A DNA stretch of 64,000 bases from Psammoneis japonica (GCA_008632985.1 QPGO01000111.1:124001-188000); one strand, 5' to 3'; shown: positions 1 through 64,000, counted from the stretch's first letter. Numbers and translations are program-made. The notes: a model not told the origin generated them from the sequence alone.

Positions 1-2127
1 TCAAGGGTTTGAAGCAGCAGCAGCAAATGCTCCAGTCTAGGTGCTGCATGCACCACAGATTCTTTGGTGGAAAGACAGAACGAACCAGTGCTTGTGCTCT
101 CTGTGCATCTAAAAAAAACTTGCTGAGCAAAGGCAGGCAAGACAAAGGCTGCATCATGCACCTTGGGCACATGATGCCTCAGCTGCCTTTGAACTTTGGC
201 GCCGGGCATGTGCACTGGTTTCTTGCACCCCTCCCATCCCTTGGTGGTGAGAACAAAACCAACTTGACCTGACAGACAAGCTGGAATGGTGCTGTGCCAG
301 CACAAGCATGCCTGAGATTGGTGTGGAGGTGGAGGATGTGGATTGAATCAAGAGATGAATCAAATTGACATGAAGTCACATGCACTCACCTTGTGCACAG
401 ACAATGCTGTCCTTGTGTGGACACCAAGACTTGTTTGGGATTCACTTGGTGACTTGAATGACGCCATCCAACACCAAGAAATTGCTGCAATGGGTGGATT
501 GAAAACACAAGTGCATCTTGAAACTTGGAGTGGCTGTGGTGCAAGACCTTTTTGACTTGCTTGCAATGCCAGCTGCACTGGAAATGTGTTCATTCTCACC
601 TCTTCTTGCTCATGAAGCCAGCCATCAATGACAAGATCCGCGCCACTGTGTCAGGATGCAAGCATGAAGAAGAAACAAAACAGCAAGGAAACAAGCTCAC
701 ATGCATCCTCAGAGCATGCTTTGACTGCCAACTCTGCTTGATGCTGACTGTGGCATGGCATCTGACAACTTGCTTTGGGCCCACGGGAGGATCAGAGCTT
801 TTGGTGCTGCACGTGGTTGTTGTTGTTGGATTGCAGTTGCTGTGTTGTTGCCTTTGACATTGGCACCTCCATGCCACAAAAGATGTGACAAACTCTTTTA
901 GAAACTTGAAACACAAGACTGGTGGGGGATGTCTCCAGCCAGCTGCTGGCTGAAAAAATCTGCCTGTCAATGCATTTGATGACAGACTCTTCCAGCACCA
1001 ATTCTGCACACAAAATTCTTCAGCCAGCAGCTGGCTGGAGACTTCCTCCAAGACAGAGGATCCAGTGATGCAGCTTTGAAGAAGCCCTGCCACATCAAAA
1101 GAAACATGGCGACTCCAAAATTCAAACAGTGAAATGTCTTTGGCCTGTTGGGGGCAAAGGTGCTGGTGGTGGAAGTCTGTGGATTCCCATGGGGATGCTC
1201 AGAGAACATCAGTGCTTTGGTGATTGCACCATGACGATGTGCGATGGAGTGTCAAAAATCAAGAAAAACAGTTGGTGCCACAGCGCTGCAAATTGCTGAG
1301 CAATTGCATGATTCACTGCCTGAAGGTCAAGTGTCATTGCCTGGAGCAACATTCTCCCTTCGTGCAGATGTCCATTCTGCATGGCACATGGCATTGAAAA
1401 TCTCATTGCAGCTGCATGAGGCACAGTCCAGGCAATTTCATCAAATGACCTCTTTGGTGCACTGTGCTGTGTGATCTACACACATCGGACATTCTTGAAT
1501 GCTGGTGCATTTTCTGCAGTCTCCACATGCATGAAGCTCAAATTTTGTGCCTGAAGGAACAACCACCCCCTTTGGGCACGCAAATCACACAATTGTTCAG
1601 CAATTTGTGTTGAGCATTTAAACACCCCACATCACAGAAAGCTGCGCACAGGCAGATGCGTGTCACACTCATTTTCATTTTTCTGGGGATTTTGCCAGTT
1701 GCCCATCTGCCCAAAATCAACCACTGTCAGACCAAGCCCTTCAGCTTCTGTGGTGCTTTTGCAATGACAAGAGCACAAATGCAAAAATTGCCAATGGCAA
1801 AACTGGCACTCATCTCTGTGATGCTCATTTTGAAGACAATCAGCTCCACACCACCAACAACCCCAATCTTGTGACTGACATGCGTCATGACATTGTGGTG
1901 AGAAATTTCATTGTGTTCAGTTGTGTTTGTGCACCACATGGTGCAGCATCATGTTTTGATGTTTTTTGGGGTGTCACCTGTCCTTGTTTTGCTCACAGTC
2001 ATTTGTTTTGTGTCATGTTCTCCAGAGCAAGGTTGATGTTCCATTGTTTGCAGCGTTGAAGCTTCGTGAGCATGATGTGGATTGAGTCATGGATGGGGGG
2101 TGTTCTCAGTGACCACGCAGTGACCCA

Positions 2128-3005
2128 GCTCAGTTTGGATTTGCCCATTTGGAGATTCCCAAAAAATGGCCAGGGTGAGGGGGAGTCACCTCACCCTTCT
2201 GGGAAAGCCCAGGAGAATTGAGGGCAATTTTGTGGGAAGGAATGCCTGAAAGGGCTCAGGGGAGGGGAACAAAAACAAACAGAGTGCAGCAATGTGCAGT
2301 GACTGCAGTCAGGTGGCTGTGCTTTTATCTCCATGACAACCAATGCATGGCACATGACGACGACAATGACCAGTGCATTGATGCATCAACACAAAGCAGC
2401 TCCTTGTGGCAGAACAAGGAAAGAAGAAACTTCACAATTGAGTCAGCCATGTTAACATTGCTCATGTGTGGTGCTGTTTTTGCCTTGTCCTTTGCTCTGG
2501 AGCCCTTGTGGTTTGCACATTTGTGACCACGCGACACAAGAAAGAACACATGATGCACTGCACTCTGCAAATGAGAGACCAACCAAAACAAAAATGAGCA
2601 ACATGCCGTTTGTGGTGTTGGCTTTTGTCAAACAACAATGAAACCAGTCAATCTCATGATCAACAGTGTAAAACACAAAATGCATGGAAGCATGACAGAT
2701 TGTGCTCAAAAAACTGGTGTGTTGACAGATTGTTGCACTTTTTGTTTTGTCACACTGTCGCAAATGCAAGCCATGCAGCATCTGCAGCAAAGTCCAAGGC
2801 AAAAGCAGAGCTGTGCATGGCCAACAATGATGTTGCGGATTGAGCAGTCTTGCTTTTTCTTCAAATTGACACATCTTGTGTGCAGAATGAAGTGGATCAT
2901 CTGGAATCACTCTGTTGTCGTGCAGCTGCAAATGCAAGCCACGAGGCTTCTGGAGCAAAGGCTGAGGCAAAAGCACAACCTCACAAGGCCAATGAAAATG
3001 TGCTC
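2128..3005 (+). repeat. Dispersed repeat (modules A+B), copy 1
   Basis: 2128-2453 aligns with 9282-9613; 2220-2580 aligns with 10228-10585; 2625-3002 aligns as reverse complement with ~10622-11010. Confidence 0.85.
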
Positions 3006-3096
3006 ATTCTTTCCTTTTACTTGATTTGTGAGGTTGTGGGTGGGTCGCGGTTTGGAGTTTCGACTTGCGTTTCCAAAATTTAATTCTGCAATCATC

Positions 3097-3830
3097 ATGC
3101 AGTGCATGCGGTGTTCTTGTTTGACGTCCAGGGCTCGACCTGTCATGTTCGGCGAAGCAATTTGATGCCCTTAAATGTGCTTGAACTGCATTTGACAAAA
3201 CAAGAGGAAACAATTGTGGTTGTTCCAGGTTGTGATTGTGGGCTGCCGGTTGACCGGGTTCAACCAGCCATTGCACCAGAAACAAAAGCAGCAGAGGAAA
3301 CCACTCACTTGCCTTGCAGTTTTGGAATTGACAAGTTGCTCGAGTCAATTGACATTGCCAAAACACAATGCCCAAACTGCCGGTTTGCAATCAAGGACAT
3401 TTTGTTGGAACCCGGCTCTTTGACACTTGCATCAGACTTCTTGGCAGGTGTCCCGGAAGTCATTGCTGTGGATGTTGGCCCCCGCACTGAGTCTTAAAAG
3501 GGTTGTGCAGTTTGATCAACGGCTGCGATTGACAATTGTCAAGAGATGGTAATTGACACAGAGGTGCAACAAGACAATGGAAGCTGTCTAGTTTGCTTTG
3601 CAGCCAATGATGTGATTTCATCTGCGCCCAGCAGACACCACCAACCGGCTTCTCAGACCGCTTCATTGAACCACAGCACCACAGCTGTGTGCTGTTTGCG
3701 CTTGTCAATGTTGTCAATTTTTCATGTGCATCAGAAACCAAAACAGTCACAAAGAGTGCTCTCTCCCCAAGTTCCCTCGCAGTTGTCAAGAGTTGGGCAA
3801 TGGGAAAATTGGCGGGTCCCAACTTGAAGA
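3097..3830 (+). pseudogene. Degraded coding remnant of unknown function
   Basis: ORF 3102-3497 reads as globular protein sequence (DKLLESIDIAKTQCPNCRFAIKDILLEPG) with Tyr absent; family not recognised. Confidence 0.3.
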
Positions 3831-4040
3831 GAAACTGGAATTGTGAAATGTGTGCTCCACGCACTCAGGTGTTGGGACAAAGATCAATCCATTGTCGTGC
3901 CCAGGGTTTTGAGAGCCACTTGTGAATCCATCAACCAATGCACGTCAGTGTCGCACAGTGCTTTCCATGACCTCAGACCTTGGGAACTTCCTCCACTTGC
4001 TGGGATTCTGGGTTGGTTTTGGGGGGGGCTGAAGCATCAA

Positions 4041-5098
4041 TCAACCAATGTCAAGGAGATGCAAGGAAAAGCATGCGCACACCTTGAGAAACAGCAGAAA
4101 GCGCATTTGCGTGCCGACACCTTCATCCTCATCATCAGAAAAGAGTTGTTCCCTGACACATCCAGCAGTCAAGAACATGGTCACAACAAAGCCGTCCCAT
4201 GTTGAAAAGCACAAATTGCCAATGGCTGTGCCTGGGCCATCTCCAAATGTCACGCAGCTGACACCAAAGCAGCACATGGAGAGAAGCAGCACAGACATGA
4301 CAGACTCGCACATGAGGTTTGACATGTCCTTGATTGTCATGATGGACACAACCACAGCAAGCACTGTTCCAATCGCACCAAGACCAATGGCATTCTTGGT
4401 CCTCCTGCACGTGTTGGTTCCGTTGTCACAAACAGACTTGCAGCACCTCGAGCTGGCCACCAAGACAATGACCGATGCGGCAAAGAGTGCCGCCCACATT
4501 GCAGTCTTTTTCGAAGCCTTGGATGCATCCGCCACACCATGATCCTTGGCGAGACTGGCTACAATGCAGAGATTGGCAACAAAGGCGCCCCATGATGAAA
4601 AGTAAAGATTGGTGTTCTCAATGAAAAATGTTGCACCTCCAACTTTGCTTTGCGCCAAACCATTGTTGGGATCCATGATGACGGGCAAGCCAGCTGCCCA
4701 GAGAACAACAAGCAAACCCACAAAGCCAATCTCGACCGCCTTGCCTTCAAAGCTGTCTTGTACCACGAAGCGCGCGACAATGGCAAAAAAGGCAAACAAC
4801 ATGGAAATGGCCATCACAGACAGGACCCACTTGTCCGATGTGCTCTTGTCATCCACGTCACTGTCTGTCTGGAACGCCGTCAGCACGACCCACAACAAAG
4901 AGAATGAGGAGGTACAGAATGGTTCAGAACAGACAAGACTTTCACAGGATTGCAAAAGATCTAGACACGACTTGTGCTTGACACCAGATTTGAAACGAGA
5001 ACATGATCACATTCACAAATCAAAACACTGCAACACACCGCAGAAAAGATGGCCAAGGCGCACCAAGACATGAATCGATTGTTGGGATCGGGGGCCAT
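4041..5098 (-). pseudogene. Multi-pass membrane protein with internally repeated NLYF(S/T)W motif, partly hypermutated
   Basis: Exon 1 5098-5039 (MAPDPNNRFMSWCALAIFSA), GT donor at 5038, exon 2 from 4889 (VVLTAFQTD...) with ~8 hydrophobic segments; the acceptor reads TGG instead of TAG; NLYFSSW versus NLCFSTW. 3' end uncertain. Confidence 0.7.
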
Positions 5099-7324: not shown

Positions 7325-7401
7325 TTGGGTAGGTAAATACCGCGGCCTGCAGCCTAGGGTTAGTGTACTGTATTATTATTTTTGGACTCATACAGTAGAA
7401 A

Positions 7402-8977: not shown

Positions 8978-9281
8978 TATGAATCATATCTCTTCTATCC
9001 CTGCGAACCACCTGCTGGGAGTCGCCTCAAATCTGATGAAACTAGAACAATGCACATCATATGCGTGAATAAATAAATATATTAATGGCAAAAAAAAGTT
9101 TCAACAGACGATGTCATCACCACAATGTCTGAAACTTCATGACTTCACCGTCAATTCAGACGAATTGACGGGAGGTAGAAAATTTTGAGCGGGAGGGACG
9201 CGCGAAGCTCGCAAATTGGCCGGAAATCGCCGGGTGGAGCCGGCGTGCAGAGCGGTCACCCCACGATGGATGATGGATGGA

Positions 9282-11010
9282 CTTAGTTTGGTTTTACCCA
9301 TTTGGGGATTCCCCAAAATGGCCAGGGTGAGGGGGAGTTACCTCACCCGTTTGGGGGAGTCCCGGGAAATGAGGGCAATTTTGCGGGAAGGAATGCCTGA
9401 AAGGGCTCAGGGGAGGGGAACAAAAACGAATGGAGTGCGGCAATGTGCAGCAAACACAGCCAGACAGGTGTGCTTTTATTGCCATGATGACCAAGCTAGC
9501 GAGCGAGCAATGTGACATGACGCACGACAATGATTGCATTGACACATCGACACAAAGCACCCCCTTCTGGCAGAGTGAGGAAAGAAGAAACTTCGCCATT
9601 AAATCTGCCATGTTGAGCTGTGATTCAAGATCAAAGCAAGTGGCTGGGTCACCACGCCATTCAGCAGTCTTTGCAAGAAACAACTTTGGGGTTGCAAAAC
9701 CCTGCCAAACCAATGCCACAATCATTGAAAGTGCAGCCAGTGTTGATTGAGAGGTGAACTCATGTTGAAAATTGTTGGACATGGAAGGCAGCATCGTGCC
9801 CCCACTTTGTGCACCTGCAAATCCCCAGCAAACAAAAATGAGCTTGACCCATGCTCTGCTGGTGCCAGCGCTGTGCATGGTTGAGGGAATGGATGGATGG
9901 AGCAAACAAAATTTTTTGTGTGCATGTCTTCCACAAAGAAAAAGGTCTGCTGCACTGCACGCATGAAACTGGCAGTCCAAACAAACCACATAAAACAAAA
10001 TGCAGAGAACAGCCTGCCAATGAGCATGTGCAGAAGCAAAACTGGAAAACGCCACAGTTGTGCATTGTTGAAAACAATGGGCTGCAAATGACACCCAGCA
10101 ACCCACCAGGCACCGTTTCAGGAGCACCAGAACATGGCATTGTCAGTTCATTCCTGAATCTGTGCCATGAGTGGGAGGGCTCAATGGCAACAACAACAGC
10201 AAAAGACACAGTTGCCACTCTAGGAAATGAGGGCAATTGGAATGCCTGAAAGGGCTCAGGGGACGGGGACAAAAACAAATGGAGTGCAGCAACATGCAGT
10301 GATTGCTTGCAGTCAGGTGGTTGTGCTTTCATCCCTGAGACAACTGATTGATGCATGACGCACGACAATGACAATGACCAATGCATCAACACATCAACAC
10401 AAAGCAGCTCCTTGTGGCAGAGCAAGGAAAGAAGAAACTTTATGATTGAATCAGCCATGTTGACGTTGCTCATGTGTGGTTCTTTTTTTGCCACATCCTT
10501 TGCTCTAGAGCCCTTGTGGTTTGCATTCTTGACCACGCGACACAAGAAAGAACACGTGAAACACTGCATTCTGCAAATGAGACAGATCAAAGGAAAGAAT
10601 GAGCATGACCACTCAAATGCACCACATTTTCATTGGCCTTGTGAGGTTGTGCTTTTGTCTCAGCCTTTGCTCTAGAAGCCTCATGGCTTGCATTTGCAGC
10701 TGCATGACAACAGAGTGATTCCAAATGATCCACTTCATTCTGCACACAAGATGTGTCAATTTGAAGAAAAAGCAAGACTGCTCAATTTGCAACATCATTG
10801 TTGGCCATGCACAGCTCTGCTTTTGCATTGGACTTTGCTGCAGATGCGCATGGCTTGCATTTGTGACAGCACCAAAAAACAACAAGTGCAACAATCTGTC
10901 AACACACCAGTTTTCTGAGCACAATCTGTCATGCTTCCATGCATTTTGTGTTTTACATTGTTGACTGCAATGTTGTTCACAAGATTGACTGGTGTCATTG
11001 TTGTTTGACA
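9282..11010 (+). repeat. Patchwork of repeat modules A, C, A', inverted B
   Basis: Direct alignment to 2128-3005 and to 24703-25349. Confidence 0.85.
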
Positions 11011-12416
11011 AAAGCCATCATAAATGGGGTGTGAACGCTCCATGGCATGTTGCCCATTCTTGTTGTGGTCAGTCAATTGTTGATTTGCATGTCTGGTGTG
11101 GCTCTGCATGTGCCGGCACACAAATGGAGCTTGCAGAAATGCACAAGAGGGGGAGCATGGGGAATTGCCAATGCATTGTTTTTTGTTCATGCATTTGGTG
11201 CACATGTGTGACAAAGCATCGTTTGTGCTTGTTCCCTGGGAACCCTTTTCCATGGAAAAAGTGTGGCAAAAGGTGGCAATCTTGGGGAATTTGGGGCAAC
11301 CCCATGGCAAAACCAAACCAAGCAACCCAGCAGGAAGTGGGGACCACACGTCGATGGTGCACATGTGACAGCTTGACTTTGGGCTCAACAAAATCACCTT
11401 GAATGGCTTTTGTGTGACAATTGAGGGCTGTTGTTGTGTGTCTGAATCATTTGTTTGCTTGTGCTTGCAGTTGAGCATGATCAATCTCACCATGTCTCAT
11501 CTCATTGCAATCTTGGGCATGCCAGAACCATGTTGAGAGGGTTGTTCATGACAGCTCTGCAAGGTGGAACTTTTCAAATCACATGGAATAATTTTCGCAC
11601 AACAGCTGTGGTCTGTTGTGGTGTGCTTGAACTTTGCCTGTCCTTGCATTTCAGGGTGATGAGTCTTGCTTCTCATCATTGTTTGGCGCACTGCATGCTG
11701 GAACCACGTTGTGTTGATTGCACATGACAGCTTGACTTTGATCTCAACAAAAACAGTTGGAACAACTTTTGTGTGAACTGTTTTTCCATGCATCATTTGG
11801 CAACGTGTCCTTGTGGTCCAGCATGATTTGGGTCATGCCCTTGTGGAAGCATCTGCCAGAAGAGCATCAGAGGCCGCAATGTGGTGTTGTTCACTTTCCT
11901 TTGGAAATGTCAGCACATTTAATTTGACAAAAGTGCGCTGTTGTTAGATGAATTTCATTTTTGTTTTGATGGTCAATTTACATTCATTGTTGCCGTTTTA
12001 TGTTGGCAGTTGTTGCCATTTTATTTTGCTTTTAAGTTGCCAAAGAATTTCAATGAGCCCTTTGTTGTTGAACAATGCTTTTTGTTTTGATTAATTTGTC
12101 ACATGTTTGTGGAAACATTGACTTTGACAGTGCTTTTCAACAGCTTCACCGCAGCCTTGCATCACCACAGACAATGGCATTTCTTTCTCGCCCCAGTCGG
12201 CCACGCAATTGCCTCTAGGAACGCCAGCTCATTGTCACCTGCACGCTCCAGTTGTCCAGTCAATGGGTCCCTGCCTCCATTTTGGTGCCTTTTCTACATG
12301 TGCAGTTCTCTGCCCATTTCATGACAGCACACCCTCTCCCCAAAATGCTTTTGACGAGAGGGTGCACTGTCATGAATCCTGTGCATTCTGTGTGAATCGG
12401 CAACTGACTGTTGGCC

Positions 12417-15400
12417 ATGGCATCCAATGACTTTACCCCGTCTGACGACGAGGTCGACCCTGACACTTCTTTCCAAATTACCGAGGACTGCAACTTCAAT
12501 GAAATGGAACATTTCACCAACAGTTTCGGATTCGAATTGTTCCAACCCAAGCTCAAAAGCACAATTGCAACGCGTGCCTCGAAAAAGAAGTTTTTGGAGT
12601 CGACGAATTGGACCCCCTCTCCAGAATTCCTCGCTCTTCCCTTCCTTTGTCACAAGCCGAAGTTACGCCGTGTTCCTCATGTTGCCGAAGTTATCCGCAC
12701 CAACAACGTTGTGAGGAAAACCCTTGGCTGTCCCGACATTTGGTCCTGCATCATGACTCGTGGTTGGTCCATTGAGAAATCCTGCCGTGCAAAAGGCGAG
12801 TGTGTCCCACGACATAAAAATCTCGAGGAGGCTCTGCATTTCTCCAAAACATCCGGAGAGACAGAAAAAGAACAGCAGAACCGCATGCTTCTCCACCGTG
12901 ACATCCAGGCAATGGCAGAATTTGTTTGCACGATCATTGCCGGAGACGACCCAAACGATCCTTTATCCGGCAAGCCTTGTTTCTGATTTTTACGGTGCAA
13001 AAGTCTCCAAAGTTTGATCAACGATCGAGCCCAAGACCTCCACAGTGTCGCTGACATCGTCATGTGTTGCGTTCAGCACAAGCCCAAGGACATGGACCAT
13101 TGGTTCTTGAAGATTTTCCGTCACGTCAAAACCCAAAAGGAATGGCACCTCTTTGTCAACAGCTTTCTGGTTGCATGTGATGCTGACAATCCTGGTGCCC
13201 AGGCGGACAAGATCAAGGGGTTCCTTGCCAACTCAACCGGCAACACAAAGAACACGGTGACAATGCAAGGCGATTCCCTTGCACGCCGTGAGGCTCGTGA
13301 AGAAAAAATCAATTCCATGTTGAATCACGAATTTGGGAAGCGTTGTCCCAAGGAGCAAATTGGTGTCCGACCTGGGCACAGCAAGCAGCTCACAATGCTC
13401 CGTTGCAGAATGTGTGATCAGAGGGCCGACTGCTTGGAAGACGATGACAAACAAATCTGCAACTCCAAAACCAAACGCAAAATTAGGAGGACAAGCAAGG
13501 ATGGCACCTGTTTGCACGATGGCAAGAAACCCCCCCACCTCCCGCCTTCTGCCTTTCCACCTGCATCTGCAGTCTCAACGTCTCTTCTCACACCCCATGA
13601 TTGTTCACGACCCACCAGAGCCTTCCTTGACTGTTCCCAGCAAGAAGGCCAAGCCTGCATCTCGCAACAAACAAGCACCTCCATTGCTTTCTGGCAATGT
13701 TCCGTCGTCTGGGGAGGCGCACCGGACTCTCACCGCCGACCTTCCGTCACTCTCAGAAACCACGGAAAACCTAAAACCTGCTTCTACCTCCAAAGGTCCT
13801 TCGTCCAAACCTCATTCCTCTCCTCCTTCTGTTTCAGCTAATCCTCCCGCGGTTGCGTCTCCTCCTGGTGACCCTGATGACATGTCATGGCTGGACCTGT
13901 CCACACTCCGCGATCACTTTGAACCGTCCAAGTGTCAACCCGCCACCACCGAGGAAGTTTCTTCTCATTTGTCACACCTGCACATCATTGACAAAGCCAC
14001 CGACACTGATCGGGTGCTTCATCATTCTGCCGCCGACTTTTGCCTGGTGGATGACTTGCGGGAAAACTGGCACACGTTCTCAAACAATGCGCCATCATGT
14101 GATTCCGCCGCCGCATCTCGTGTTCGAACCGAGCACCCTCCCAACCTTGACCACTTCTCCGAGGAACTCTCCGTCGCCCGTCAGGCTAACTCTCTGTACA
14201 AAGGGCACTTTGGGTGCCTTCGGGTGTGCATTCCTGCCCTTCTTCCACCCATTTTGTTGAAGGGAGAGTCCGATTTGACACGTGACGGACCGGTTGCAGT
14301 TCAAAACGGCGAAGCACGCAGGACAAAGTTCGGTTGTGCAGGGAGAGCGCATCACCCCAAGATGCCGGGTTCCACCAAACTGGCCAAACCAAAGGCCACT
14401 TACGGACTTGATGTCTTTGAGTCCGACGACAACTTCGACGCCAACGAGACCTCCAAAATCAAGGCGATGGCAGCCGACATCCTTGACTCGATTCAGCTTT
14501 GCAAAAATGAGGTAGAGCTGAAAAAACTGGGCAATCCACCACCACCCAACTGGTCACTTCGGTGCGAGCAATGCTTGCAAAAGTTGGGCAACGAAATGGG
14601 CTGTCTCTTCTTCAAACGTGAGGACGTCACCATGCAGGGATTGTGCATTTCCCGGGGTCAAGACTGTGATGGTCACCATGACAATAAAAACTGCATCTGG
14701 TGTCAATGTGGGAAGACAGCTGCAGGTTGCTTCTTTGTCATGGATGCCTTTGGCAACATCTGGTCCTTCAAGGTTGTTGCCAACAGCAGAAGGACCGTTG
14801 GTGAATGCTGCGACGACCAGCACGACATGAAGCCTGTGCTCACTTGCACGCACCACAGTCAAGCTCAGCTTGATTTTGCACTTAAAGACTTGGACTTGCA
14901 GCACGATGGTCCCACCCACCCCGATGTGTCGCTTTCCAGCATTGCATTCAAGCATCTTTCCCTTGACGACAACAGGCCGTGGGACAAAGTTCTTGTTGGT
15001 GGAGGTGGCGACTCTTCATGTGTCGAGGTGCACATGGATCGACTCAAGTTCCCGACTTTCCCAGTCAGGGACTTCCACTTGTCTGCCCCAGTCACAGTGA
15101 TCCACCGTTTCAAGAACATTGTGTGCTGATCAGGTCCCGACCCAAAACAAGTCATTCGTTTGGCGATCCATGCTGGTCATCCCACCGGATGTCACCGATT
15201 TTACTGCGTGGGGGACAAGTGTCTTCCCAACCTTTGTTGCGAAGGTGCCGACCCATTTGTCAACTTTGCCGATCACTTGCAGAACACATTTGGGGTGCTG
15301 TTCAGTGACCCACAGGTGGGTGGGATCAGCCCCACCAATTTGACGTACGAGAAATTTTGCGACGCATTTCTAGACCCTTGTTACGTCGGAACCGCGAATG

Positions 15401-17570
15401 ACCCAATTGACACAATGGTGGAAGAAATCTATGCTGTGCTTCTCTGGACAAAGGACAACGTCGACACCAACGAGTTCTGTCCCAACTTAATGGAACAATG
15501 GTGCAAGGCAGCGTGTGATGCTTGGGCAGACCGGGGAGCAGATTTCAGTGAGATTCGTCTCATGTTGGTGCTGCAATGTCTGGTGCTGGCAGGTGTCGCA
15601 GTGAAAGACCATCCAAGACTCAACAACATTGTCTGTCCTGTCTTCAATTTGGGAGCTGCCACACAACTGGGGCATGTCCAACCGAAAGAAAGGCCGCTCA
15701 TGCACCAAAGGATGTCATCCGAAACAGGAACCGAAGAGCACGGTTGGAACGGAACCGAGCACAAACTTTGTGAGAATTCAGACAATCGCTGCACCCACAT
15801 TTTTGATTGTGTTTTCTGAGGACCCTGTTCAGGACAAGACCTGTTTGCCTTCTCTCCCTCTGGCCAGCATCTCTGCAAGCCATGTGGGTCAACCAAGCAT
15901 GAAATTTTGGAGTGTGTTGACGACGACCCCAACCTTTGCCAATCACAAGACAACACTGAATTGCGCACATCTGTGTGTGAATCAGCCGGGCTGTCAGATG
16001 GTGCCAGTGTTTTCTCTGTTGTTGATGGACTGCCCGTGGACAATGAACTAAGCTCATTGTCTTCGGAGGAGTCTAGACTCGCCGCAAACAATGAACTGAG
16101 CTCATTGTCTTCGGAGGATTCTCGGCTTGCCGCAGAGAATGAACTGGGCTCAATGGATTTGGAGGAGTCTTGACTCGCCGCAAACAATGAACTAAGCTCA
16201 TTGTCTTTGGAGGATTCTCGACTTGCCGCAGAGAATGAGGGATTCGGATGAGTCTCGACTCGCCGCAAACAATGAACTGAGCAGATTGTCTTTGGAGGAG
16301 TCAGTGTTGTCGGAGGACTGCTCGTGTCTTGATTCGGGCTGCCGCGTTCCAATTGTCGCGATGGATTCTGTTGTCGTTCAGTCGCAGGATCAAGAATCCG
16401 ATGAAGATGATGCAAGCAACGCAACCGCGTACGATCGACCCGAGCCACCTGTCCTTTCACAAGCACAAGATTTTGACTTGGACGAACATGTGAATGCCAT
16501 GTTTGCGCAAGTCTGTCAACAGCCAAAGAACTCCTGCAATTGTTCTGTGGCATGTTTTTCACAAATCTCAACCCACAAAATGACTCATTCTGTGCTTTTG
16601 TTTCACATTGTCATGTCATCCCCAGACAAGACGGAGGTGCAAATGTCCTGTGGCTTTGCATGACTGGGCCCGTCATGGCCGGAAACCTGACATTGGATGA
16701 GATGTGTTCAGACCGTGGCATGGAGGCTGTCCGATCCACTCAGCAAAGAAGAGATGAGGCAAGGTGTCAAGTTGTTGCGGATCTCTGTACAAACTCAAAT
16801 GTTCATGTGTGCACTGTGTCCCTGCAGGATGGTGGCCCAACTTGTCACTTGAATTGCAACATTTCTGCTAAATTTTTGCCCAAAGGGTCAAGACGCGGTT
16901 TGCAAGAGACATCGATTTTAAGAAAAGCGGGTTCACTCAGATTTGCATGGACCACCACTGGATGCAAAAAGGGGAGTGGCAGCAGTCGACATTTGGAAAT
17001 TGCTTCTTTCGTGAAAACCCAAGGGAGGTGATGGAAACGTTGTTTCATCCAAAGCTCCAGAGGTGCCACGTCACAGTCCCGTGCACCATGTGGTCACCAA
17101 CCCAAGTCGCGCGCAATTTGAAATGCATCCAGGAATGTGCACTGGTGCTGGGAATGACACAGGACATGGCATGTGCCGAAGTGACGATTTGCCAGGCTTC
17201 CCAGGAAATTGTCAAGCAGGAACGTGGGGTTTGGCTGGGCAAACCATCTGACCAGGAGGCATTGCATTTGGGAGTCACGGAACAGGAAATTGGGCAAACA
17301 CTGCCAGATGCAGAAGCCAAAGCTGTCCTGGCATTCATCCAAGATTGTGGATTTTGCAATCCAAAGGAACTGTTCCTGCTCCTGTCCTTCGAGAAGAGAG
17401 TGCACAATTGGAGGGACAAGGTCAGCAGATGGCCCAGCAGTTTCTTGCTCTGCTGGTTGCCAGTCGGATTGTTGAGCAGATTTTTAAAGTGGGTGAGTGA
17501 ACGTTGCATCTGTTGGTGTCCTGGTCGTCCCGATCAAGTTTTCTGCTGCTGTTGTCGGATGCTCACATGC
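12417..17570 (+). pseudogene. Large transposon cargo gene with HxDxxN motif and C-terminal helical ExxLCE domain
   Basis: ORFs 12411-12986 and 13014-13841 share one frame; 13333-15129, 15160-15819 and 15907-16173 share another. Each break is a single TGA, consistent with CGA->TGA. Only 2 Tyr in the 598-aa ORF. The downstream part (16.5-17.5 kb) may be further exons or a separate gene. Confidence 0.6.
16041..16300 (+). repeat. Coding 48-bp tandem repeat (NELSSLSSEESRLAAN), about 5 units
   Basis: Repeated aatgaact(a/g)agctcattgtctt(c/t)ggagga...gccgca units. Confidence 0.9.
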
Positions 17571-17573
17571 TTT

Positions 17574-20500
17574 TCACCTGCTTTTGTGAAACAGCTCTCC
17601 CCATGCATTTCTGCGGTCTTGAACTGCCCAAACATGCTTTGTCCCATCGTGTGTTTCAGCAATGCCAGGTTGCTCCTCACACACCAACAATTTGTCGCCA
17701 ACAGCATCGATGGGCACCAAGAAAAGCTTGGGTGAGTGCACTGTTTGTTCAGCAGTGGACAAGTTGTTGTTCTTCACTTGGCCCAATTGCCAGCGACTGA
17801 CCAGGTCGGTGTGTTGCATTCGTTCAACCATGGTGCGCTTGTCAGGCTGTTGCGTGCAAGGGTGAACGACCGCATGCAAGTCACCGTCGCTTTCCCTTTG
17901 GAAGAAACAGCGAAGTCTTGACGGGAAGCACAATTCCCCCCTGGTTGTGCCAAAAGTGAACATTCGCCCAGTCATGAACCGGTCCTTCACTGTTGCAGTC
18001 TGGGTGTGCACGGCAAGTGTCTTTCCCGTTCTTGTTGCAGAATTTGGTTTTGCAAACAAGGTTGATGGTGAGATTGCCTCCTGCTCCAATGCAATCCCTC
18101 CACTTCTTTTGAAAGAAATGGAGCCGGACCGGGTGAGCCTGACATTGTTTTTGCTTCCCGTGCCAGAGAAAGCTCACTGCGTTGTTTGTCGCACTGCAGG
18201 TGATGGAAAAGGCACTGCCACCCAGTGTGTGACTGTCATTGCCACGTGTCACGTCCTTTCGTCCAACTCTCGATGTGATCCATGGGTTGGCCGACAATGC
18301 ACGGTGCACCATCATTTGGTCTTGCATGCGTGACACAACCTGACCCAGGAAGATGTCAAAGCTGCGTTGTTGTGCCGTGGCAGATGGCAATTTGAAAAAA
18401 TCCTCAAGCAAAGATTCCCCAAGACCAGCATCAAAGTTCATGGCATGATGGAAATGACATAGAAAGATTGGAAGGTGAAGAAGCTTGTGAAGTTTTTGCA
18501 GCTTCCACCCAGCCCCTTTGTGTCCAGGGGAGCAATGCACGGTGCGAGACACCAGCAACCGAATTTTCTTTGTGATTTTGGTCAGGTCAGTTGTGTCGGT
18601 CGGTGGGTCGCCGAGTCGACACCAAGCATGGAAGGCAAGCAGGTCTTCCAGCAACTGGGCGTGTTGCCCAACACTGCAACTGAGGGGCTTTCTCTTTTTT
18701 TTCCTTTTCCGTTGATTGTGGCTGTTGCCTTCATCCTCGGACTCGTCCGGTTGGTGTTCCACACAATCGTTGGCATCCGTTTTGCACGGATCATCTGTTC
18801 TGTTGTTGGAATGATGATCGTCGCCATTGTTGCACTCTTCCGGCATGTGACAGCGATTGATTCGGAACCCAGGCATCCCATGCCCTGACGGCAATGGAGG
18901 ATTGTCTTGGTCTTCCTGGAGAAAACAAGATTCGCAGACATCTCTGCCTTCCTTTGTCAGCAGCAACAAATGAAAAACAAAGGCCATCCCCGCCCAATGA
19001 TTTGAGTTGAGGCAGGTGAGTGATGTGGCCCCACCCTTGAAATTGGTTCGTAAGAAAGAATTGCAAGTGGATCGGTGGTTGCCAAACATTTTTTCCACTG
19101 ATCTGTCAACCTCGCTTCTCACTGAGTTTGTCATGCTGTCAACAAAAACACAACCTCCCTTTTTAAAGTTCCGTTTTCAAACAGGTGCATCATGTCGCTT
19201 GCCGTGGAAAGGGTTGCTCCGAATGGCTGTTCTCCGAAATCTGCATTGAGCAAGCTGTTGGCAGGCACATTGTGCTGCTTCATGCAATGAAGCTGCTGCA
19301 GCCAGTGGCTCCTTTCTTGCTTGTCAAGACTGAGATCATTTGCGTGGTTCTGGACCAACAAAATGTCGCCAGCCCTGACGAGTTCGCACTCCTTCCAAGG
19401 GTCGTCAAGCTCATTGCATCCGGTCATGCAAAACCTGGAACAACGTTGGTGACAGTTCTTGGCACCATGCCCACCCACAAGGCAGTCACCACTCTTCGCA
19501 TCTCCGTTGATTGGGATTGTTGTTGGAATGACATGAAGGAAACGCACCTCATCACTGTGTTGAACGCAGCAGCGAAAGCCACCATTTTCCATTGTGTCTG
19601 GCAGAGGCTGGAGCATTGTTGCCAACACCTTGTGATGATCCCGGATGCTTTGGCCCTTCTCCAACTTTCGGGCGTTAGATTGCTGTTTGGCGGCGGAGGA
19701 GGACATTTTTTCTAGGTCGGGAATGCAACCAAGGACACGCCACTTCGCTCTGTCATGCCATTGGTTGCAGGCAACATGAGCCGACGTAACTGTGACGGGT
19801 TCTCTGCAGGAAGACGACATGGAGGCTGTCTTCCCAGTCTTGTCAACGCAAATTGTCAAACATTCGAGGAACTGTTTAAGAGGATCCAAGACCCTGGCTG
19901 TGCATGCACTTCTGCACCACTCTCTGGCCAAAACACACTTGTCGTGCTTTCCCTTTGAGACATGCATTCCGCATGGATGGGCAGTGTCGGCAAGATTGCT
20001 GGGGTTGGCCCATGTGCAAGCATCCAGCATGAACGATTCCCACACATCTTTGAAATTCCATTGCAGAACTCTTGCAGTCGTCTCATCGCGTTCCCCATTG
20101 ACGCTTTCTAGGTTGACTGGAATCATCTCGCATTCCGGACCTGCAAAAGATTCGTGCAGGTTCTCCATTGGTTTGGTCCGGTGAGGGATTTGCGTTCCAA
20201 GATGGAAGGTGCTGCCACAGTGTCTTTCGATGAACTCAGCGATCTTGTCGCACAGGTGAAGCGGTGCTCTGCAGTCGTCCAAGAGCTTGCACAGCTCTGC
20301 ACAAGCACCGCTGAGGTTGCCAAGAGATGGCATGCAGGCAAGTGCATCTTCGGCTGGGCTGCGGCACACCTTGCCCAATCGGCTGTCTTCACTCCGCGAA
20401 TCATCTTTGTCTGAGATGTTTGATTTGTCATGATTTGCAACTTTGGAGCCCTCCATTGTGACATCTGGCAACGCATCAAACGAGTCATCTGGTGACAAGC

Positions 20501-21008
20501 TTGCTTCAGAAGACAAGTCCAGGGACATGTGATGAATTTCCTCATGATGGGATCACGACCCAAGAGCGGAGATGTCATCATCAAACGGTGGTGACCATGG
20601 TTCATCGCTTCTGTCATTTTCGTTGGTGGTGGACCCAAGCCTGATGTTCGCTGCAGACGCACCGCGTCTGGACCGCCTCAGCCTTGGCTGTGACGAGTCA
20701 TCTGATGAGGAGGAAATGTCGAGATCAACCGACCCACGTCTGCGAGAGAATTTGTTGCTGACATTGGAAGTTTTAGCCGCAACCCTTGCTGACAACTCTG
20801 GCAATGGGCAGTTTGTGACTGCCTTGCGACGTGACAAGTTGGACCTCTCTTGAGCAAACGAAAAACACAGCGGGCAGTGATGGAAATGTGTGAGCATCCA
20901 TTTGAAGGATCGTTTGCAACACGGACATGCGACCGCACCATCCCCACCCTGCCAGCCACCGTTTCCTTCCATTTTACATTTCAGCAGGTTTGTGGGCTTC
21001 CCAAACAC
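17574..21008 (-). pseudogene. Plavaka-type transposase, frameshifted and hypermutated
   Basis: Motifs ICVDKTG, WRVLGCIPDL, IRDHHKVL, GDAKSGD, SDMMHLFENG, WKLQKLHKLLH, NFDAGLGE, CRAHPDCNSEGPVHDW match the family as I recall it once Cys/His are read as Tyr; N-terminal CPCCKRSF...H zinc finger; split across ORFs 20553-21008, 19131-20528, 17881-19134 and 17574-18089. Confidence 0.8.
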
Positions 21009-21265
21009 ATGTGTGTTCGAATGGCATCACCGGCTCAGTTCGTGAAAAGTGAAACAGTTCAGGCGGCAAGGAAGAAAAACACGACACGAATTGGCACGAA
21101 AACATTGGTGCATTGTGTTCTTCCCATCAATGAAAACATTGATGGGTGAGAATGAATCGAGTGTGTTGGGATCATTGACAACTTTGAGCATGAACAACTG
21201 ATTGCAAAGGTTGTTTTTCCATGGAAAGGAGAAAATAAGTTGTGACGTGATGCGCCGCAATGCCA

Positions 21266-22442
21266 CATGGCAAGAAGTCCAGGATGGGTGCACCCACACC
21301 TGCTGCAGCAACAGACACAAACGTTGCAATCAACAATGAATGCTGTTGTGCAAAATGACCACTCAATGGCGCATTGGCCAAATGACTGCTGGAGGAGATT
21401 TGAAAGTTTGACAATCATGACAGAAGATGGAAGGTGACAAATCATGGATTCGGAGTGCAACGCGGCTTTTGATGAGTTGGATTGTTTGATGCAATCTTTG
21501 CCACAAGGCAGGATGGTGCATTCTGATGACACGGGCACAGCTTTGATAAAGTTTGAGAGCGGCACACATGCGGTTAACCCGCACCTGCGCCGTGACGTGA
21601 TGGACCTGTGTCGCATGATGAGTGAGGACGACATCCAAGCAGAGGTGCAACCACATGGTTTGGGTGCACCAACATGTGAGTGATTGGAGCACAGAAGCAA
21701 TTGAGTGCATGCACGCCAGCACAGGCATGATCTCAATTCACGACAACCTGAACTGGTTGAATGGCATCGTCAACCGTGGGATTTGTGCTCGCCATTGCCA
21801 GGAGCATTGGGACTGCGTCGCGACTCACCAAGACAGGCAAGGAAGGATGTGCTGTGTCTGCAGCACTTGGCACAATGAAGGAGAGAAAGAGCTGAGGGAT
21901 GAATTTGCAGCGGGTGCGTGTGATGACACAAAACCAGTCATTGACAGTGGAGATGTTTCGAGATTGAGACGGAATTCAAGCATCAGCATGCCGACCCATG
22001 GCATGGATGAGACAGGCACTTGCGGACCGTTGGGAGAAACATCAGCGAGGGGAGGCACTTGCGGAGACTGGCAATGGACAAGAAGGGAATTGTTTGTGAT
22101 GCATTAAAACTGGCGAAGTGGTTCCAGCGTGACATCATGCGAGACAACCATGAAAGACTTTGGTTCTGTGAGCAAATGGAGTTCTTCAGGTTGTCTCCAT
22201 CGACAGTCAATGAATGGATGCGGGACATCATCAGGAAGGAGGATGGTGAGCGGGAGAAATTTCACAGCAGGAGAAAGGAAAGGCGTTGGGTGGAGAGACG
22301 TCGTCGCATTGAAGTTGACGAATTCGTGAGAATGGTCGGAGCGGAGACGAGGGCTTTCACCCACATGACTGACTGTTCCGACAGCGGGCGATGCATCAGT
22401 TTGAGAGTCACCAGGTTAGAGGGAGATGACGAATTGGACTAG
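21266..22442 (+). pseudogene. Degraded transposon cargo ORF, unknown function
   Basis: Successive protein-like ORFs 21444-21683, 21622-22107 and 22020-22442 broken by TGA stops and frameshifts. Confidence 0.4.
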
Positions 22443-22855
22443 AAAAAACGATTTGGCGCCAAAAGGCATGGATGTGCTTGGGCCCCAACCGCAAACCGGA
22501 ATGTTGTTAAAGCAGGTGAGGGGTTTGTTCATTGCAGTAAAAACAACTTTTGTGGGTGCATGTTTCACAATGATGTTTTGAACAAAATGCTTTTGCAAGC
22601 TGTTTACACTGTGGAAGTGGATTTCGACATTGCAGCAAAAGAGAGGTTTGAACTGGAATTCGCAGGGATTCAAAATTTTCGCAAGACAATGAGGAATGGC
22701 AAAATGGATAAATTGCATGTGCATTAAAAATTTTGGTCAATTCTCCATCATGTTGCATTTGAGAAAAAGGAATCATTGGTGGCAACTGTGAGATTTTTAG
22801 CACCAAAGAGAGGTTTGAAAATTTCCCAACGGCGAAAACAACCAGGGACACAAGG

Positions 22856-24120
22856 CATGGAGCCACCCACAATTGGCAACAGTGGCACAGGCAATGGTGA
22901 GGAAGAGGAAGAAAGAAACTGCGGGGGTGGCTGGAGATCAACCAACAAGCCCAAGGCTGGCTGCAGCGTTGGTGCGGGTGGGAGCCACTGGGGATCACCA
23001 GTCCATGAAGAGAGAGGCAGAAGAGGTGGCGCAGAAGGAACTTTTCCCAAAGGCAAAATTCCTTGTCAAGGCGGACATGGCAAGCAGTGGCAAAGTGTCA
23101 CGGCTCATCAGGAAAAAGACAGCCGGCGGCAATTGCAGCAAGCGAGACTCGGCAGGAGCTTGGGAAGACTGGGCAAAGAAGTGCGTCATGCATGCAATTG
23201 GCACGAAAAGGAGCACGGTCACTCAGGCGATCAAGAACAATGCAATGACTGGCAAGTGTTTTGTGGTGCACGGCATGTTAGATGCAGCTGTGCTTGGCAC
23301 AGCTGCACCTTTATTTGCTGAAGTCGTGTTGACAGAGAACGAAGCCAAGGAGATGCGCAGTCAGAAGAAGCTGGCAGCAAAGGGCAGAGGAGGGAAGAAG
23401 AGCAAGAAGCGGAAGAAGAACGATCGTGCGGAAGAGGAAGAGCCGTTCCTGGCGACTTGGGGGGAGGAGACAGTGACAACGATTGTGGAGGACAAGCGCA
23501 AGAACAAGGAAGCACATGCTTGGTTCTATGGAAACATCCTGAAATTCACAAAGAGCACCACCACATGGAGAAGGAAGGCAGAGTCAGGTGAGACGAAGGC
23601 AACCGGTCTGGCCACAGTGAGCGACGAGGCTCTGGCACTGTTGACATTGGAAAACTGCTGGAAGAGTTGGGAGCACAAGGCACGTCATGACAAGACTGTT
23701 GCAGCAGGGGGAGGTTCGGACAAAGAAGATGAGGAAGAGTCGGAACCAACACCCAAGCACACGGACCCGTCGAGGCAACGAGACTCGTGGAAGGATGCAG
23801 GGATTGAGCGATTCAACGAACTGCTTGCGGAAGTAAAGAAAGACAGGTTGAGCAAGGAGGGCATGCAGTTCGACACATGGTGCAGCAAAGGCAAGAAAAG
23901 GAAGAGTGACGAAAGAGACAAGGGATCAAAAAGAAAGAAAAAGCCGGTGGAGGAGGCAAGAACACAGGCAACGACAGAGCTTTCAAGTGACAACGAGGAG
24001 AAGGAGGAAGAGGTGACGGGCGAGAACAGAGGAGACAAGGACAGCAAGGAAGAGGAGGAGGAAAGTGATGCGGGCAGCGATGCGAATGTAGATGCAGATG
24101 ATGAGCGAGCTGCGGCATGA
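22856..24120 (+). pseudogene. Transposon accessory protein (K/E-rich; TVSDEALALLTLEN-W...PK-TD...W-DAGIERFNEL)
   Basis: 415-aa ORF with 1 Tyr; this motif set is one I associate with ORFs next to Plavaka-like transposases; probable intron near 23254-23320. Confidence 0.6.
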
Positions 24121-42352: not shown

Positions 42353-42358
42353 TAGCAA

Positions 42359-63940: not shown

Positions 63941-64000
63941 TGATTTTTCATTGTTGTTTTGATGCGCAACACTGCTCTCATGCAACTCTTTTTTTTTCAG

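What the first reader, a model, noticed from the sequence alone, without database searches (positions are those of the whole stretch)
2128..2300. Direct before/after pair: interior repeat copy versus domain-edge copy
The copy at the edge of domain 2 keeps TA at 9284-85, 9295-96 and 9339-40. The interior copy has CA (2131-32), TG (2142-43) and CA (2187-88) at the same aligned sites. CG->TG/CA changes also occur (ttgcggga/ttgtggga, aaacgaa/aaacaaa, gtgcggc/gtgcagc). This indicates direction (TA ancestral), action on both strands, and weaker mutation at domain edges.
Basis: seen in the sequence. Interest (0 to 1): 0.8.

Follow-up and report, generated by a model that had tools for sequence, protein, structure and literature searches.

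The report
TA-erasing hypermutation of diatom repeat domains
In this diatom-like genome, kilobase-long silent transposon-rich stretches have had almost every TA (and many CG) step rewritten to TG or CA, a targeted mutation process that resembles the fungal repeat-killing system RIP but runs on different bases and seems not to have been described.

Summary
The edge copy has TA at 9284, 9295 and 9339. The interior copy has CA, TG and CA at 2131, 2142 and 2187, and the three CG-to-TG/CA sites also hold.

It is one instance of a window-wide pattern. Four domains (1-~4950, ~9600-27042, ~42935-50032, ~56755-64000) have TA O/E 0.06, CG 0.44 and TG/CA about 1.73. Gene regions have 0.56, 0.97 and 1.19, with identical base composition.

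The direction was tested with outgroups:
- In two transposon ORF relics, 0 of 12 conserved Tyr columns keep Tyr and 9 of 12 are Cys or His.
- Against the closest relatives, 9 of 14 and 8 of 11 Tyr are Cys or His.

Copies mutated independently: 55 CA-versus-TG sites in a 1797-bp pair, against 5 in 1531 bp of gene paralogs. The process is context-specific: TTAA survives at 0.71 and RTAY at 0.02.

Independent contigs reproduce the sequence at equal depth, so it is not an artefact. Thirty-six metagenomic Plavaka loci keep normal TA.

The "before/after" framing is too clean, because the edge copy is itself partly mutated. The edge gradient is only moderately supported. The enzyme is unknown. Seven paper searches that ran found no description.

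The parts
2100..2620 (+). Interior copy of a ~0.5-kb non-coding repeat; the finding's 2128-2300 lies inside it. Heavily converted: 4 of 28 variable TA/CG sites kept.
9255..9616 (+). Truncated copy of the same repeat, lying in the left transition zone of domain 2. Partly converted: keeps 5 TA and 7 CG of 28 variable sites.
10110..10625 (+). Second interior copy of the repeat. Supplies the three-state site (TG at 10213).
1..4950 (.). TA-erased domain 1, which runs off the window's left end. Graded right edge at about 4400-5200.
9601..27042 (.). TA-erased domain 2. Graded left edge at about 9176-9600 and abrupt right edge near 27042. CG is nearly gone at 9600-12000 and 24500-26000, and partly kept at 12500-24000.
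42935..50032 (.). TA-erased domain 3. Graded left edge at about 42600-42935 and abrupt right edge near 50032.
56755..64000 (.). TA-erased domain 4, which runs off the window's right end. Graded left edge at about 56400-56760.
17884..20552 (-). Relic of a Plavaka/KDZ-type DNA-transposon transposase: two ORFs (19134-20552 and 17884-19176) joined by one frameshift. It has 0% Tyr and excess His and Cys. Contig depth is about 1000-2400 against about 57 for single-copy DNA, so it is a high-copy element.
13324..15126 (+). Second long ORF relic of the same repeat block (601 aa, 0.3% Tyr), with two database relatives. Function unknown.
57622..59741 (+). First unit of a ~2.1-kb direct duplication. Its partner is at 61900-63934, at about 80% identity.
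61900..63934 (+). Second unit of the duplication. The pair has 55 CA-versus-TG sites in 1797 aligned bases.

Best explanation
The pair in the finding is a local view of a real, heritable, domain-restricted hypermutation in a diatom-like nuclear genome. Inside transposon-rich, apparently silent domains, two palindromic steps are driven to the same end products.
- TpA becomes TpG or CpA: an A:T to G:C transition on either strand.
- CpG becomes TpG or CpA: a C:G to T:A transition.

Shown here:
- The direction of change.
- Independence of the changes between copies after amplification.
- No strand coordination.
- Very high specificity. All excess transitions lie in these dinucleotides.
- Strong flank dependence. 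RTAY is erased, T- or A-flanked TA is slower, and TTAA is nearly immune.
- TA loss runs ahead of CpG loss.
- GC content stays unchanged.
- Transposon ORFs are destroyed by Tyr to Cys/His and Arg to Cys/His/Gln/Trp changes.

Inferred:
- The TA part is enzymatic and targeted to silenced or repeated chromatin, so in effect it is RIP-like.
- The simplest chemistry is hydrolytic deamination of adenine to hypoxanthine at 5'-TA-3' (poor at TAA) on either strand.
- It runs alongside ordinary deamination of methylated CpG.
- Its intensity falls off over a few hundred bases at some domain borders. That is why the edge copy keeps its slow-context TAs.

The confidence given is for the whole statement, including the inferred enzymatic, targeted nature. 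For the shown part alone (a real TA and CG to TG/CA conversion in these domains) I would put it near 0.9. For adenine deamination as the specific chemistry I would put it at about 0.3.
For: Composition. The domains (35.4 kb) have TA O/E 0.06, CG 0.44, TG 1.74 and CA 1.72. Gene regions (25.8 kb) have 0.56, 0.97, 1.20 and 1.18, with the same base frequencies. Per kb, TA falls by 33.7 and CG by 29.9, while TG+CA rises by 67.9. Sums over the four YR steps are roughly conserved for most flank pairs.

Direction. 0 of 12 conserved Tyr columns keep Tyr, and 9 of 12 are Cys or His. Against the closest relative P0121, 9 of 14 Tyr are Cys or His. In the second ORF the figures are 8 of 11 and 8 of 13. Five of 13 conserved Arg columns are Q, C, W or H.

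Independence between copies. There are 55 CA/TG sites in the 1797-bp pair. These dinucleotide classes account for 158 of 310 mismatches, and the remaining 152 split about evenly between transitions and transversions, as in the gene control (p=2e-10). Other genomic copies in X1 carry TA, CG, CA or TG where the window copy has another of the four.

Context. There are 37 TTAA in the domains against 38 in the gene regions, but 8 RTAY against 309 (survival by flank).

Not an artefact. X1 contigs match TA-less and normal parts with 0-2 differences per 0.3-2 kb, at the same depth (58.8-65.6 against 56.5).

Not a property of the element, and not an automatic result of CpG decay. All 36 metagenomic Plavaka loci have TA O/E 0.39-0.72, including L036 with CG O/E 0.01.

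Edge gradient.
Against: - No enzyme, base modification or timing was observed. The adenine-deamination chemistry is inference only. A thymine-modification route gives the same sequence outcome.
- No whole genome was held. Repeat dependence, genome-wide extent and the edge gradient therefore rest on one 64-kb window, six boundaries and one edge copy.
- Parts of the TA-less domains lie at single-copy depth at 90% likeness or more (bins 1-667 and 4003-4669). A strictly repeat-induced trigger is therefore not shown.
- The rule that the A in TAA is refractory predicts which product forms. It fits 6 of 6 one-side-protected sites among the X1 variants but only 2 of 4 outcomes at the finding's own sites. 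The tetranucleotide excesses are mixed.
- X1 may be the sample the assembly was made from, so it excludes an assembly or strand-misreading artefact but is not an independent isolate.
- The domain and gene-region limits used for the statistics were set from the TA profile itself.
Confidence: 0.55

Rival explanations
1. Same targeted hypermutation, but through thymine rather than adenine. A TET/JBP-type dioxygenase oxidises T at TpA (5-hydroxymethyl- or 5-formyl-uracil) in silenced domains. The oxidised base mispairs with G and gives T to C.
For: The sequence outcome is identical to the adenine route. The best-characterised element in the domain is a Plavaka/KDZ transposon, and Plavaka/Kyakuja-type DNA transposons of fungi encode TET/JBP dioxygenases (PMC12730594, search listing and abstract only). 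From memory, not from any call: 5-hydroxymethyluracil in dinoflagellates and base J in kinetoplastid telomeres sit preferentially at T before A.
Against: None of the 134 domain ORFs hit any Pfam family significantly, TET/JBP included. The transposase itself was also missed, so this is weak evidence. Mutagenicity of oxidised T at this efficiency is not established. Nothing in the sequence separates this route from adenine deamination.
Confidence: 0.2
2. There is no dedicated system. A passive regional mutation bias of heterochromatin, from repair or polymerase error, has slowly removed TA and CG over a long time.
For: CpG decay in methylated diatom transposons is expected (DNA methylation on diatom transposons: PMC9998398, passages read). 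Domains differ in CG loss as if by age.
Against: TA loss is near-complete while the same sequences diverged only about 8.5% at other sites between two copies. Long ORFs survive with Phe, Gly and Trp largely conserved. TA loss outruns loss of (presumably methylated) CpG: -ln survival is 2.2 against 0.8. AA steps are not depleted (O/E 1.22 against 1.17), unlike a WA-type polymerase signature. Some borders are abrupt. The 36 Plavaka loci from other organisms show CpG decay without TA loss.
Confidence: 0.15
3. Sequencing or assembly artefact. A modified base in these domains is misread, so TA and CG are called as TG or CA.
For: Modified DNA can cause systematic miscalls. A base misread on each strand would give CA from one strand and TG from the other.
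Against: k-mer contigs of run X1 reproduce the interleaved CA/TG pattern with 0-2 differences per contig. They do so at full depth, not half depth (58.8-65.6 in TA-less parts against 56.5 in gene parts). Repeat copies differ from one another at these sites but each is internally consistent. A 306-bp tandem duplicate is 99.7% identical.
Confidence: 0.03
4. Selection against TA in these domains (for example avoidance of a TA-cutting nuclease or of TA/TTAA-targeting transposons), or foreign DNA that was always TA-poor.
For: Survival depends on context, and TTAA behaves differently from other TAs.
Against: The relic ORFs have lost conserved Tyr to Cys or His, so TA was present and its loss destroyed function. 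Different copies resolved the same site differently. Non-coding repeats and borders are affected alike. TTAA, the classic target of TTAA-specific transposons, is the context that is kept, not avoided.
Confidence: 0.02

Closest known systems
Repeat-induced point mutation (RIP) of Neurospora and other fungi
   Same: Dense transition-only mutation confined to transposon or repeat blocks. It has dinucleotide context specificity, acts on both strands, resolves independently in each copy, destroys ORFs, and tapers or leaks at the borders of the affected block.
   Different: RIP is C to T, mainly at CpA. It creates TpA and AT-rich DNA. Here TpA is destroyed (O/E 0.06), A:T pairs become G:C, and GC content is unchanged. 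The organism is diatom-like, whereas RIP is described as fungus-specific (abstracts of PMC2621366 and PMC7882544, listings). Homology dependence and premeiotic timing are untested.
Methylation-driven CpG decay (5mC deamination), including RIP-like TCG hypermutation of basidiomycetes
   Same: The CG to TG/CA half of the signal, its slower and age-like progress, and its occurrence in transposons.
   Different: It cannot remove TA. TA loss supplies about half of the TG/CA surplus. CpG-decayed Plavaka loci elsewhere keep normal TA.
Editing-type hypermutation of mobile elements (ADAR A-to-I with a 5' U preference; APOBEC C-to-U)
   Same: An A to G outcome with a T (U) required 5' of the edited A.
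   Different: Those act on RNA or single-stranded intermediates and give strand-coordinated clusters in retroelements. Here a DNA transposon, non-coding repeats and inter-element DNA are all affected, with CA and TG outcomes randomly interleaved. The neighbour preferences of ADAR are recalled from memory, not tested.
Diatom DNMT4, the relative of the fungal RIP factor RID
   Same: Many diatoms encode DNMT4 enzymes that group with RID, and their function is unknown (PMC9998398, passages read). This is a candidate for the C to T arm.
   Different: No DNMT4 gene was seen in this window and no genome was available to search. A cytosine methyltransferase fold does not explain changes at A:T pairs.

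Membership tests
Fungal RIP | C:G to T:A transitions with CpA preference, leaving TpA excess and AT-rich DNA | tested here: not met
   TA O/E is 0.06 in the domains against 0.56 outside. GC fraction is the same (0.487 against 0.481 from the base frequencies). The outgroup test shows TA to TG/CA.
Fungal RIP | Transition-only mutation on both strands, independent in each repeat copy | tested here: met
   There are 55 CA/TG sites in 1797 bp. YR classes explain 158 of 310 mismatches, and the rest have transitions about equal to transversions. The runs test shows no strand clustering.
Fungal RIP | Triggered by sequence duplication (homology-dependent) | tested here: inconclusive
   Most of domain 2 is high-copy (contig depth 1000-2400). 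However, bins 1-667 and 4003-4669 are TA-less at single-copy depth at 90% likeness or more. Old diverged repeats would look the same.
Fungal RIP | Premeiotic timing and dependence on RID/DIM-2 | not testable with these tools
   No genome and no experimental data.
Methylation-driven CpG decay | CG to TG/CA with low CG O/E in transposons | tested here: met
   CG O/E is 0.03-0.7 in the domains. There are 42 CG-versus-TG/CA sites in the 1797-bp pair. Conserved Arg columns changed to Q, C, W or H in 5 of 13.
Methylation-driven CpG decay | Accounts for the whole compositional shift | tested here: not met
   TA falls by 33.7 per kb, about as much as CG (29.9 per kb), against a TG+CA rise of 67.9 per kb. 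L036 has CG O/E 0.01 but TA O/E 0.59.
ADAR/APOBEC-type editing of retroelement intermediates | Strand-coordinated clusters confined to retrotranscribed elements | tested here: not met
   26 runs against 28.0 +/- 3.6 expected. The affected DNA includes a Plavaka-type DNA transposon and whole domains.
Plavaka/KDZ DNA transposon (for the relic 17884-20552) | Transposase homologous to PF18759 proteins | tested here: met
   The evidence is indirect. The window ORFs match 531 proteins (E<=1e-3). The N-terminal ORF matches 65 of the 70 relatives of 900 aa or more that were tested. Of 8 relatives scanned, 3 pass the PF18759 cut-off and 1 lies below it. The mutated window ORFs themselves give no Pfam hit.
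Plavaka/KDZ DNA transposon (for the relic 17884-20552) | Terminal inverted repeats and target-site duplication | tested here: inconclusive
   No convincing terminal inverted repeat among the 14 weak pairs in 11000-27500. Hypermutation may have erased them.

The most novel reading that the evidence does not exclude
This diatom lineage has a dedicated genome-defence mutator that acts on A:T pairs of double-stranded DNA. It would be a natural, chromatin-targeted DNA adenine deaminase or thymine modifier with the specificity 5'-TA-3' but not TTAA. Together with CpG deamination it erases transposons without changing GC content. That would be the first RIP-like system outside fungi and the first natural targeted A:T to G:C DNA hypermutation.
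Probability: 0.45. Interest if true: 0.95.

Novelty: new variant of a known kind. Interest (0 to 1): 0.85.

Why it matters
Targeted point-hypermutation of repeats is known only as fungal RIP, which works on cytosine. If the TA-erasing process here is enzymatic, several things follow.
- RIP-like genome defence evolved independently in the diatom lineage.
- There would be a natural activity that converts A:T to G:C in DNA with a defined sequence context. So far that chemistry is known only from engineered base editors (recalled from memory).
- It would give a possible role to orphan diatom enzymes such as DNMT4.

There is also a practical point. These domains keep normal GC content, so GC-based or RIP-index scans miss them. 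Their transposon proteins also escape Pfam, so repeat annotation of such genomes will be badly incomplete.

Tried and rejected
Searches and look-ups that gave nothing:
- Whole-genome search: no genome is held for this window.
- tRNA and Rfam scans of the window: nothing.
- Pfam on 134 stop-to-stop ORFs of 100 aa or more inside the domains: no significant family, only four weak DUF matches below cut-off. Pfam on 36 of the 78 ORFs of 90 aa or more in gene regions: only EF-Tu.
- Word-indexed protein search with the N-terminal transposase ORF: nothing. The exhaustive search with the C-terminal ORF then found the family.
- Metagenome scan with the single mutated ORF: 109 pattern matches, none confirmed. 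The alignment-based scan gave 36 loci, none of them a close copy of the window element, so no DNA-level ancestor was obtained.
- nhmmer for further copies of the finding's repeat: only the three copies plus short fragments.
- Inverted-repeat search for transposon ends: nothing convincing.
- Sequencing runs: no RNA holder listed. Run X2 gave no cover over 9339-20000 and little over 1-5000, but covered 5904-9032 unevenly with a T-run loose end. It may be RNA, but this was not established and is not used as evidence.
- Earlier notes of this scan: nothing on this genome, these words or this sequence.
- Papers: seven searches ran. They covered diatom, transposon, hypermutation, TpA, RIP-like, A-to-G and 5-hydroxymethyluracil. 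None found a description of TA to TG/CA hypermutation. Subscription journals are not covered.

Ideas considered and dropped:
- Polymerase-eta-type WA mutagenesis secondary to CpG deamination. AA is not depleted, and TA loss outruns CG loss.
- UV photoproducts. These form at dipyrimidine contexts, not at TA or CG.
- GC-biased gene conversion. It has no TA specificity.
- Amplification of an already TA-less master copy. Other genomic copies carry TA, or the alternative product, at the same sites.

Full report
WHAT THE WINDOW IS

The gene-bearing parts encode a TRAPP Trs85 subunit (29809-32739, minus strand), two divergently oriented subtilase genes (34029-37793 and 38377-41827) and an EF-Tu (51751-53125, minus strand). 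The Trs85 protein finds 120 relatives. Every named one is a diatom (Seminavis, Mayamaea, Nitzschia, Fistulifera, Cylindrotheca, Cyclotella), at 42-52% identity. This is therefore nuclear DNA of a diatom or a close relative. No tRNA or Rfam family is present, and no whole genome is held.

THE OBSERVATION

- TA at 9284, 9295 and 9339 in the copy at 9255-9616.
- CA, TG and CA at 2131, 2142 and 2187 in the copy at 2100-2620.
- The three CG-versus-TG/CA sites.

A self-comparison finds three copies of this repeat: 2100-2620, 9255-9616 and 10110-10625. The pair named in the finding has 50 mismatches in 320 aligned columns, 34 of them transitions. Seven sites are CA-versus-TG double differences. The subtilase paralogs used as control have 5 such sites in 1531 bases (p=0.0016).

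THE WIDER PATTERN

A 500-bp dinucleotide profile shows four domains with sharp limits: 1-~4950, ~9600-27042, ~42935-50032 and ~56755-64000.
- In the domains TA is almost absent, with 0-8 TA per 500 bp against 10-36 outside.
- CG is reduced and TG+CA is nearly doubled.
- Pooled over 35.4 kb of domain against 25.8 kb of gene regions, O/E is TA 0.06 against 0.56, CG 0.44 against 0.97, TG 1.74 against 1.20 and CA 1.72 against 1.18. Base frequencies are identical.
- Per kb, TA drops by 33.7 and CG by 29.9, while TG+CA rises by 67.9. The sum of the four YR steps is roughly conserved for most flank pairs.

The surplus of TG/CA therefore equals the missing TA plus the missing CG. I set the limits of the pooled regions from the TA profile itself.

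IS IT REAL DNA?

Contigs of public run X1 hold 86% of the sampled words of window 1-10000. They match TA-less stretches with 0, 2, 1, 0 and 1 differing letters (1-727, 1019-2198, 3990-4851, 10126-10440 and 11166-11891). They match gene stretches 5154-7109 and 7295-9311 with 0. Mean word depth is equal: 58.8-65.6 against 56.5.

A modified base misread on each strand would give two half-depth paths, one all-CA and one all-TG. That is not what is seen, so the interleaved CA/TG sequence is real. X1 may be the assembly's own sample. It therefore rules out an assembly or misreading artefact but is not a second isolate.

Depth of 1000-2400 over 12000-20000 shows that this block is a high-copy element. 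Differences from the other copies are 213 transitions against 36 transversions in X1.

DIRECTION

Three lines of evidence agree.

1. The site 2187 / 9339 / 10213 reads CA / TA / TG. This needs two changes from TA and three from either alternative.

2. The transposase relic.
- ORF 17884-19176 (minus strand) has 531 relatives in the exhaustive protein library. The adjoining ORF 19134-20552 matches the preceding part of the same proteins, in 65 of the 70 relatives of 900 aa or more that were tested.
- Of 8 relatives scanned, 3 pass the Pfam cut-off for the Plavaka transposase (PF18759), 1 is just below it and 4 have nothing. The block is therefore a Plavaka/KDZ-type DNA-transposon relic with one frameshift.
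- The window ORFs have 0% Tyr, with His 5.5-6.3% and Cys 4.6-5.7%. Relatives have Tyr 1.5-3.6%, His about 3% and Cys about 2%.
- For the C-terminal half I aligned 31 of the 150 listed relatives, picked by hand from across the list. In columns where at least 60% of them have Tyr, the window has C, C and H (3 of 3). Phe is kept in 10 of 12 such columns, Gly in 10 of 12 and Trp in 4 of 6.
- For the N-terminal half I aligned 20 of the 65 matching relatives with a threshold of 50%. The 9 Tyr columns read C4, H2, S, K and R. The 13 Arg columns read R5, Q2, C, W, H, G2 and S.
- Pooled, 0 of 12 Tyr columns are kept against 16 of 24 Phe columns (p=0.0002). Against the closest relative (P0121, 53% identity), 14 Tyr align to C5, H4 and 5 others.

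3. A second ORF (13324-15126, 0.3% Tyr) has two relatives. Against P0271, 11 Tyr align to C5, H3, F2 and Y1. Against P0272, 13 Tyr align to H6, C2 and 5 others.

Tyr codons are TAY, Cys codons are TGY and His codons are CAY. TA was therefore ancestral and became TG or CA.

HOW THE PROCESS BEHAVES

Copies mutate independently after amplification.
- The 1797-bp pair 57622-59451 / 61900-63731 has 55 CA-versus-TG sites, 42 CG-versus-TG/CA sites and 6 TA-versus-TG/CA sites. Together these make 158 of 310 mismatches. The other 152 are about half transitions, as in the gene control (p=2e-10).
- Other genomic copies in X1 show TA, CG, CA or TG where the window has another of the four. Examples are 19849 (CA here, TA elsewhere), 12815 (TA here, CA elsewhere) and 13364-65 (TG here, CA in 7 contigs).

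Both strands are hit without coordination. TG is about equal to CA in every 1-kb bin, and the 55 outcomes form 26 runs against 28.0 +/- 3.6 expected.

The TA arm has a strong flank dependence.
- Survival relative to gene regions is 0.71 for TTAA.
- It is 0.2-0.3 for CTAA/TTAG, CTAG and TTAC.
- It is about 0.1 for ATAA/TTAT.
- It is 0.00-0.01 for ATAC, ATAG and ATAT.
- Counts are 37 against 38 for TTAA and 8 against 309 for RTAY (p=8e-16).

A rule that the A of TAA (equivalently the T of TTA) is refractory predicts which product forms.
- It fits 6 of 6 one-side-protected variants.
- It fits only 2 of 4 outcomes at the finding's own sites.
- The tetranucleotide excesses are mixed.
I treat this as a tendency, not a law.

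TA loss runs ahead of CG loss. In 12500-24000 TA is gone while CG O/E is 0.4-1.0, whereas older-looking parts have CG at 0.03-0.3. Pooled, -ln survival is 2.2 for TA and 0.8 for CG, against 8.5% divergence at other sites between the two copies of the pair.

The effect is specific to this lineage. All 36 Plavaka loci recovered from metagenomes have TA O/E 0.39-0.72, whatever their CG O/E (0.01-1.04).

THE EDGE QUESTION

The edge copy is not a 'before' state. It differs from the interior copies at many CA/TG sites. The interior copy keeps TA at 2326 and at 2453, where the edge copy has TG.

The edge copy is nevertheless less converted.
- Of the sites that vary among TA, CG, TG and CA, it keeps 5 TA and 7 CG, which is 12 of 28.
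- The interior copies keep 4 of 28 and 3 of 26 (hand count; p=0.005).
- Where only one of the finding's two copies keeps the palindromic step, it is the edge copy in 11 of 14 sites (p=0.03).
- Six of the seven TAs left in 9170-9610 are in slow contexts (TTAG, TTAC twice, TTAT, CTAG, TTAA); the seventh is GTAG, and none is RTAY.

Of the six borders in the window, four are graded over 200-600 bp and two are abrupt (near 27042 and 50032). Across my six hand-picked transition zones, 18 of 30 surviving TAs are T- or A-flanked, against 366 of 972 in gene regions (p=0.02). RTAY makes up 4 of 30 against 308 of 972 (p=0.04). This fits a lower dose near some borders, but it rests on one window and one edge copy.

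MECHANISM

Shown: a heritable, domain-restricted, context-specific conversion of TA and CG to TG/CA that ruins transposon ORFs.

Inferred: the TA arm is enzymatic and targeted to silenced or repeated chromatin. The simplest chemistry is adenine deamination at 5'-TA-3' on either strand, running next to deamination of methylated CpG. A thymine-oxidation route (TET/JBP type) gives the same sequence and cannot be separated from it here. It is made somewhat attractive because Plavaka/Kyakuja-type transposons of fungi carry such enzymes (PMC12730594, abstract only). Diatom DNMT4 enzymes group with the fungal RIP factor RID and have no known function (PMC9998398, passages read). They are candidates for the C to T arm only.

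The rivals are a passive regional bias, selection against TA, and an artefact. They are argued against in their own sections.

COMPARISON AND NOVELTY

In effect this works like fungal RIP, but it fails RIP's defining chemistry, because TpA is destroyed rather than made. It is not explained by CpG decay, and it lacks the strand coordination of ADAR/APOBEC-type editing.

Seven paper searches ran. None found a description of TA to TG/CA hypermutation in diatoms or elsewhere. The scan's earlier notes hold nothing similar.

I rate it a new variant of a known kind (targeted repeat hypermutation). There is a substantial chance that the underlying activity is categorically new.

Noticed in passing
window 42200-42400 and 7138-7173: There are CTAG/CTAC-rich low-complexity tracts (28 TA in 200 bp at 42200-42400) in normal DNA. 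One lies only about 500 bp outside the left border of domain 3, and it is untouched by the TA-erasing process.
   Followed up: partly
window 34029-37793 (-) and 38377-41827 (+): Two divergently oriented subtilase (Peptidase_S8) paralogs, about 71-73% identical at the DNA level. Each reads as two ORFs (an intron or a frameshift), with internal short tandem repeats at 35245-35477 and 41040-41272.
   Followed up: no
window 47840-48448: A 306-bp tandem duplication at 99.7% identity inside a TA-free and CG-free stretch. The duplication therefore happened after the hypermutation.
   Followed up: partly
window 1975-1976: A single-copy-depth contig of run X1 reads TG where the assembly reads CA. This could be an allelic CA/TG pair, which would mean the process acted after the haplotypes split.
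   Followed up: no
window 5904-9032: Run X2 (same sample as X1) covers only this gene region, with very uneven depth (8-211) and a T-run loose end at 7540. It looks like RNA, but its kind is not on record.
   Followed up: no
window 22819-24117 (+): A 433-aa Lys/Glu-rich ORF inside the Plavaka block with strong purine skew (GC skew +0.27 and AT skew +0.41 at 23001-24000). It has no family assigned.
   Followed up: no
window 53823: A single N in the assembly.
   Followed up: no
L036, L018, L020 (metagenome Plavaka loci): These loci show strong CpG depletion (O/E 0.01-0.30) with normal TA. This is ordinary methylation-type decay of the same transposon family in other organisms.
   Followed up: partly
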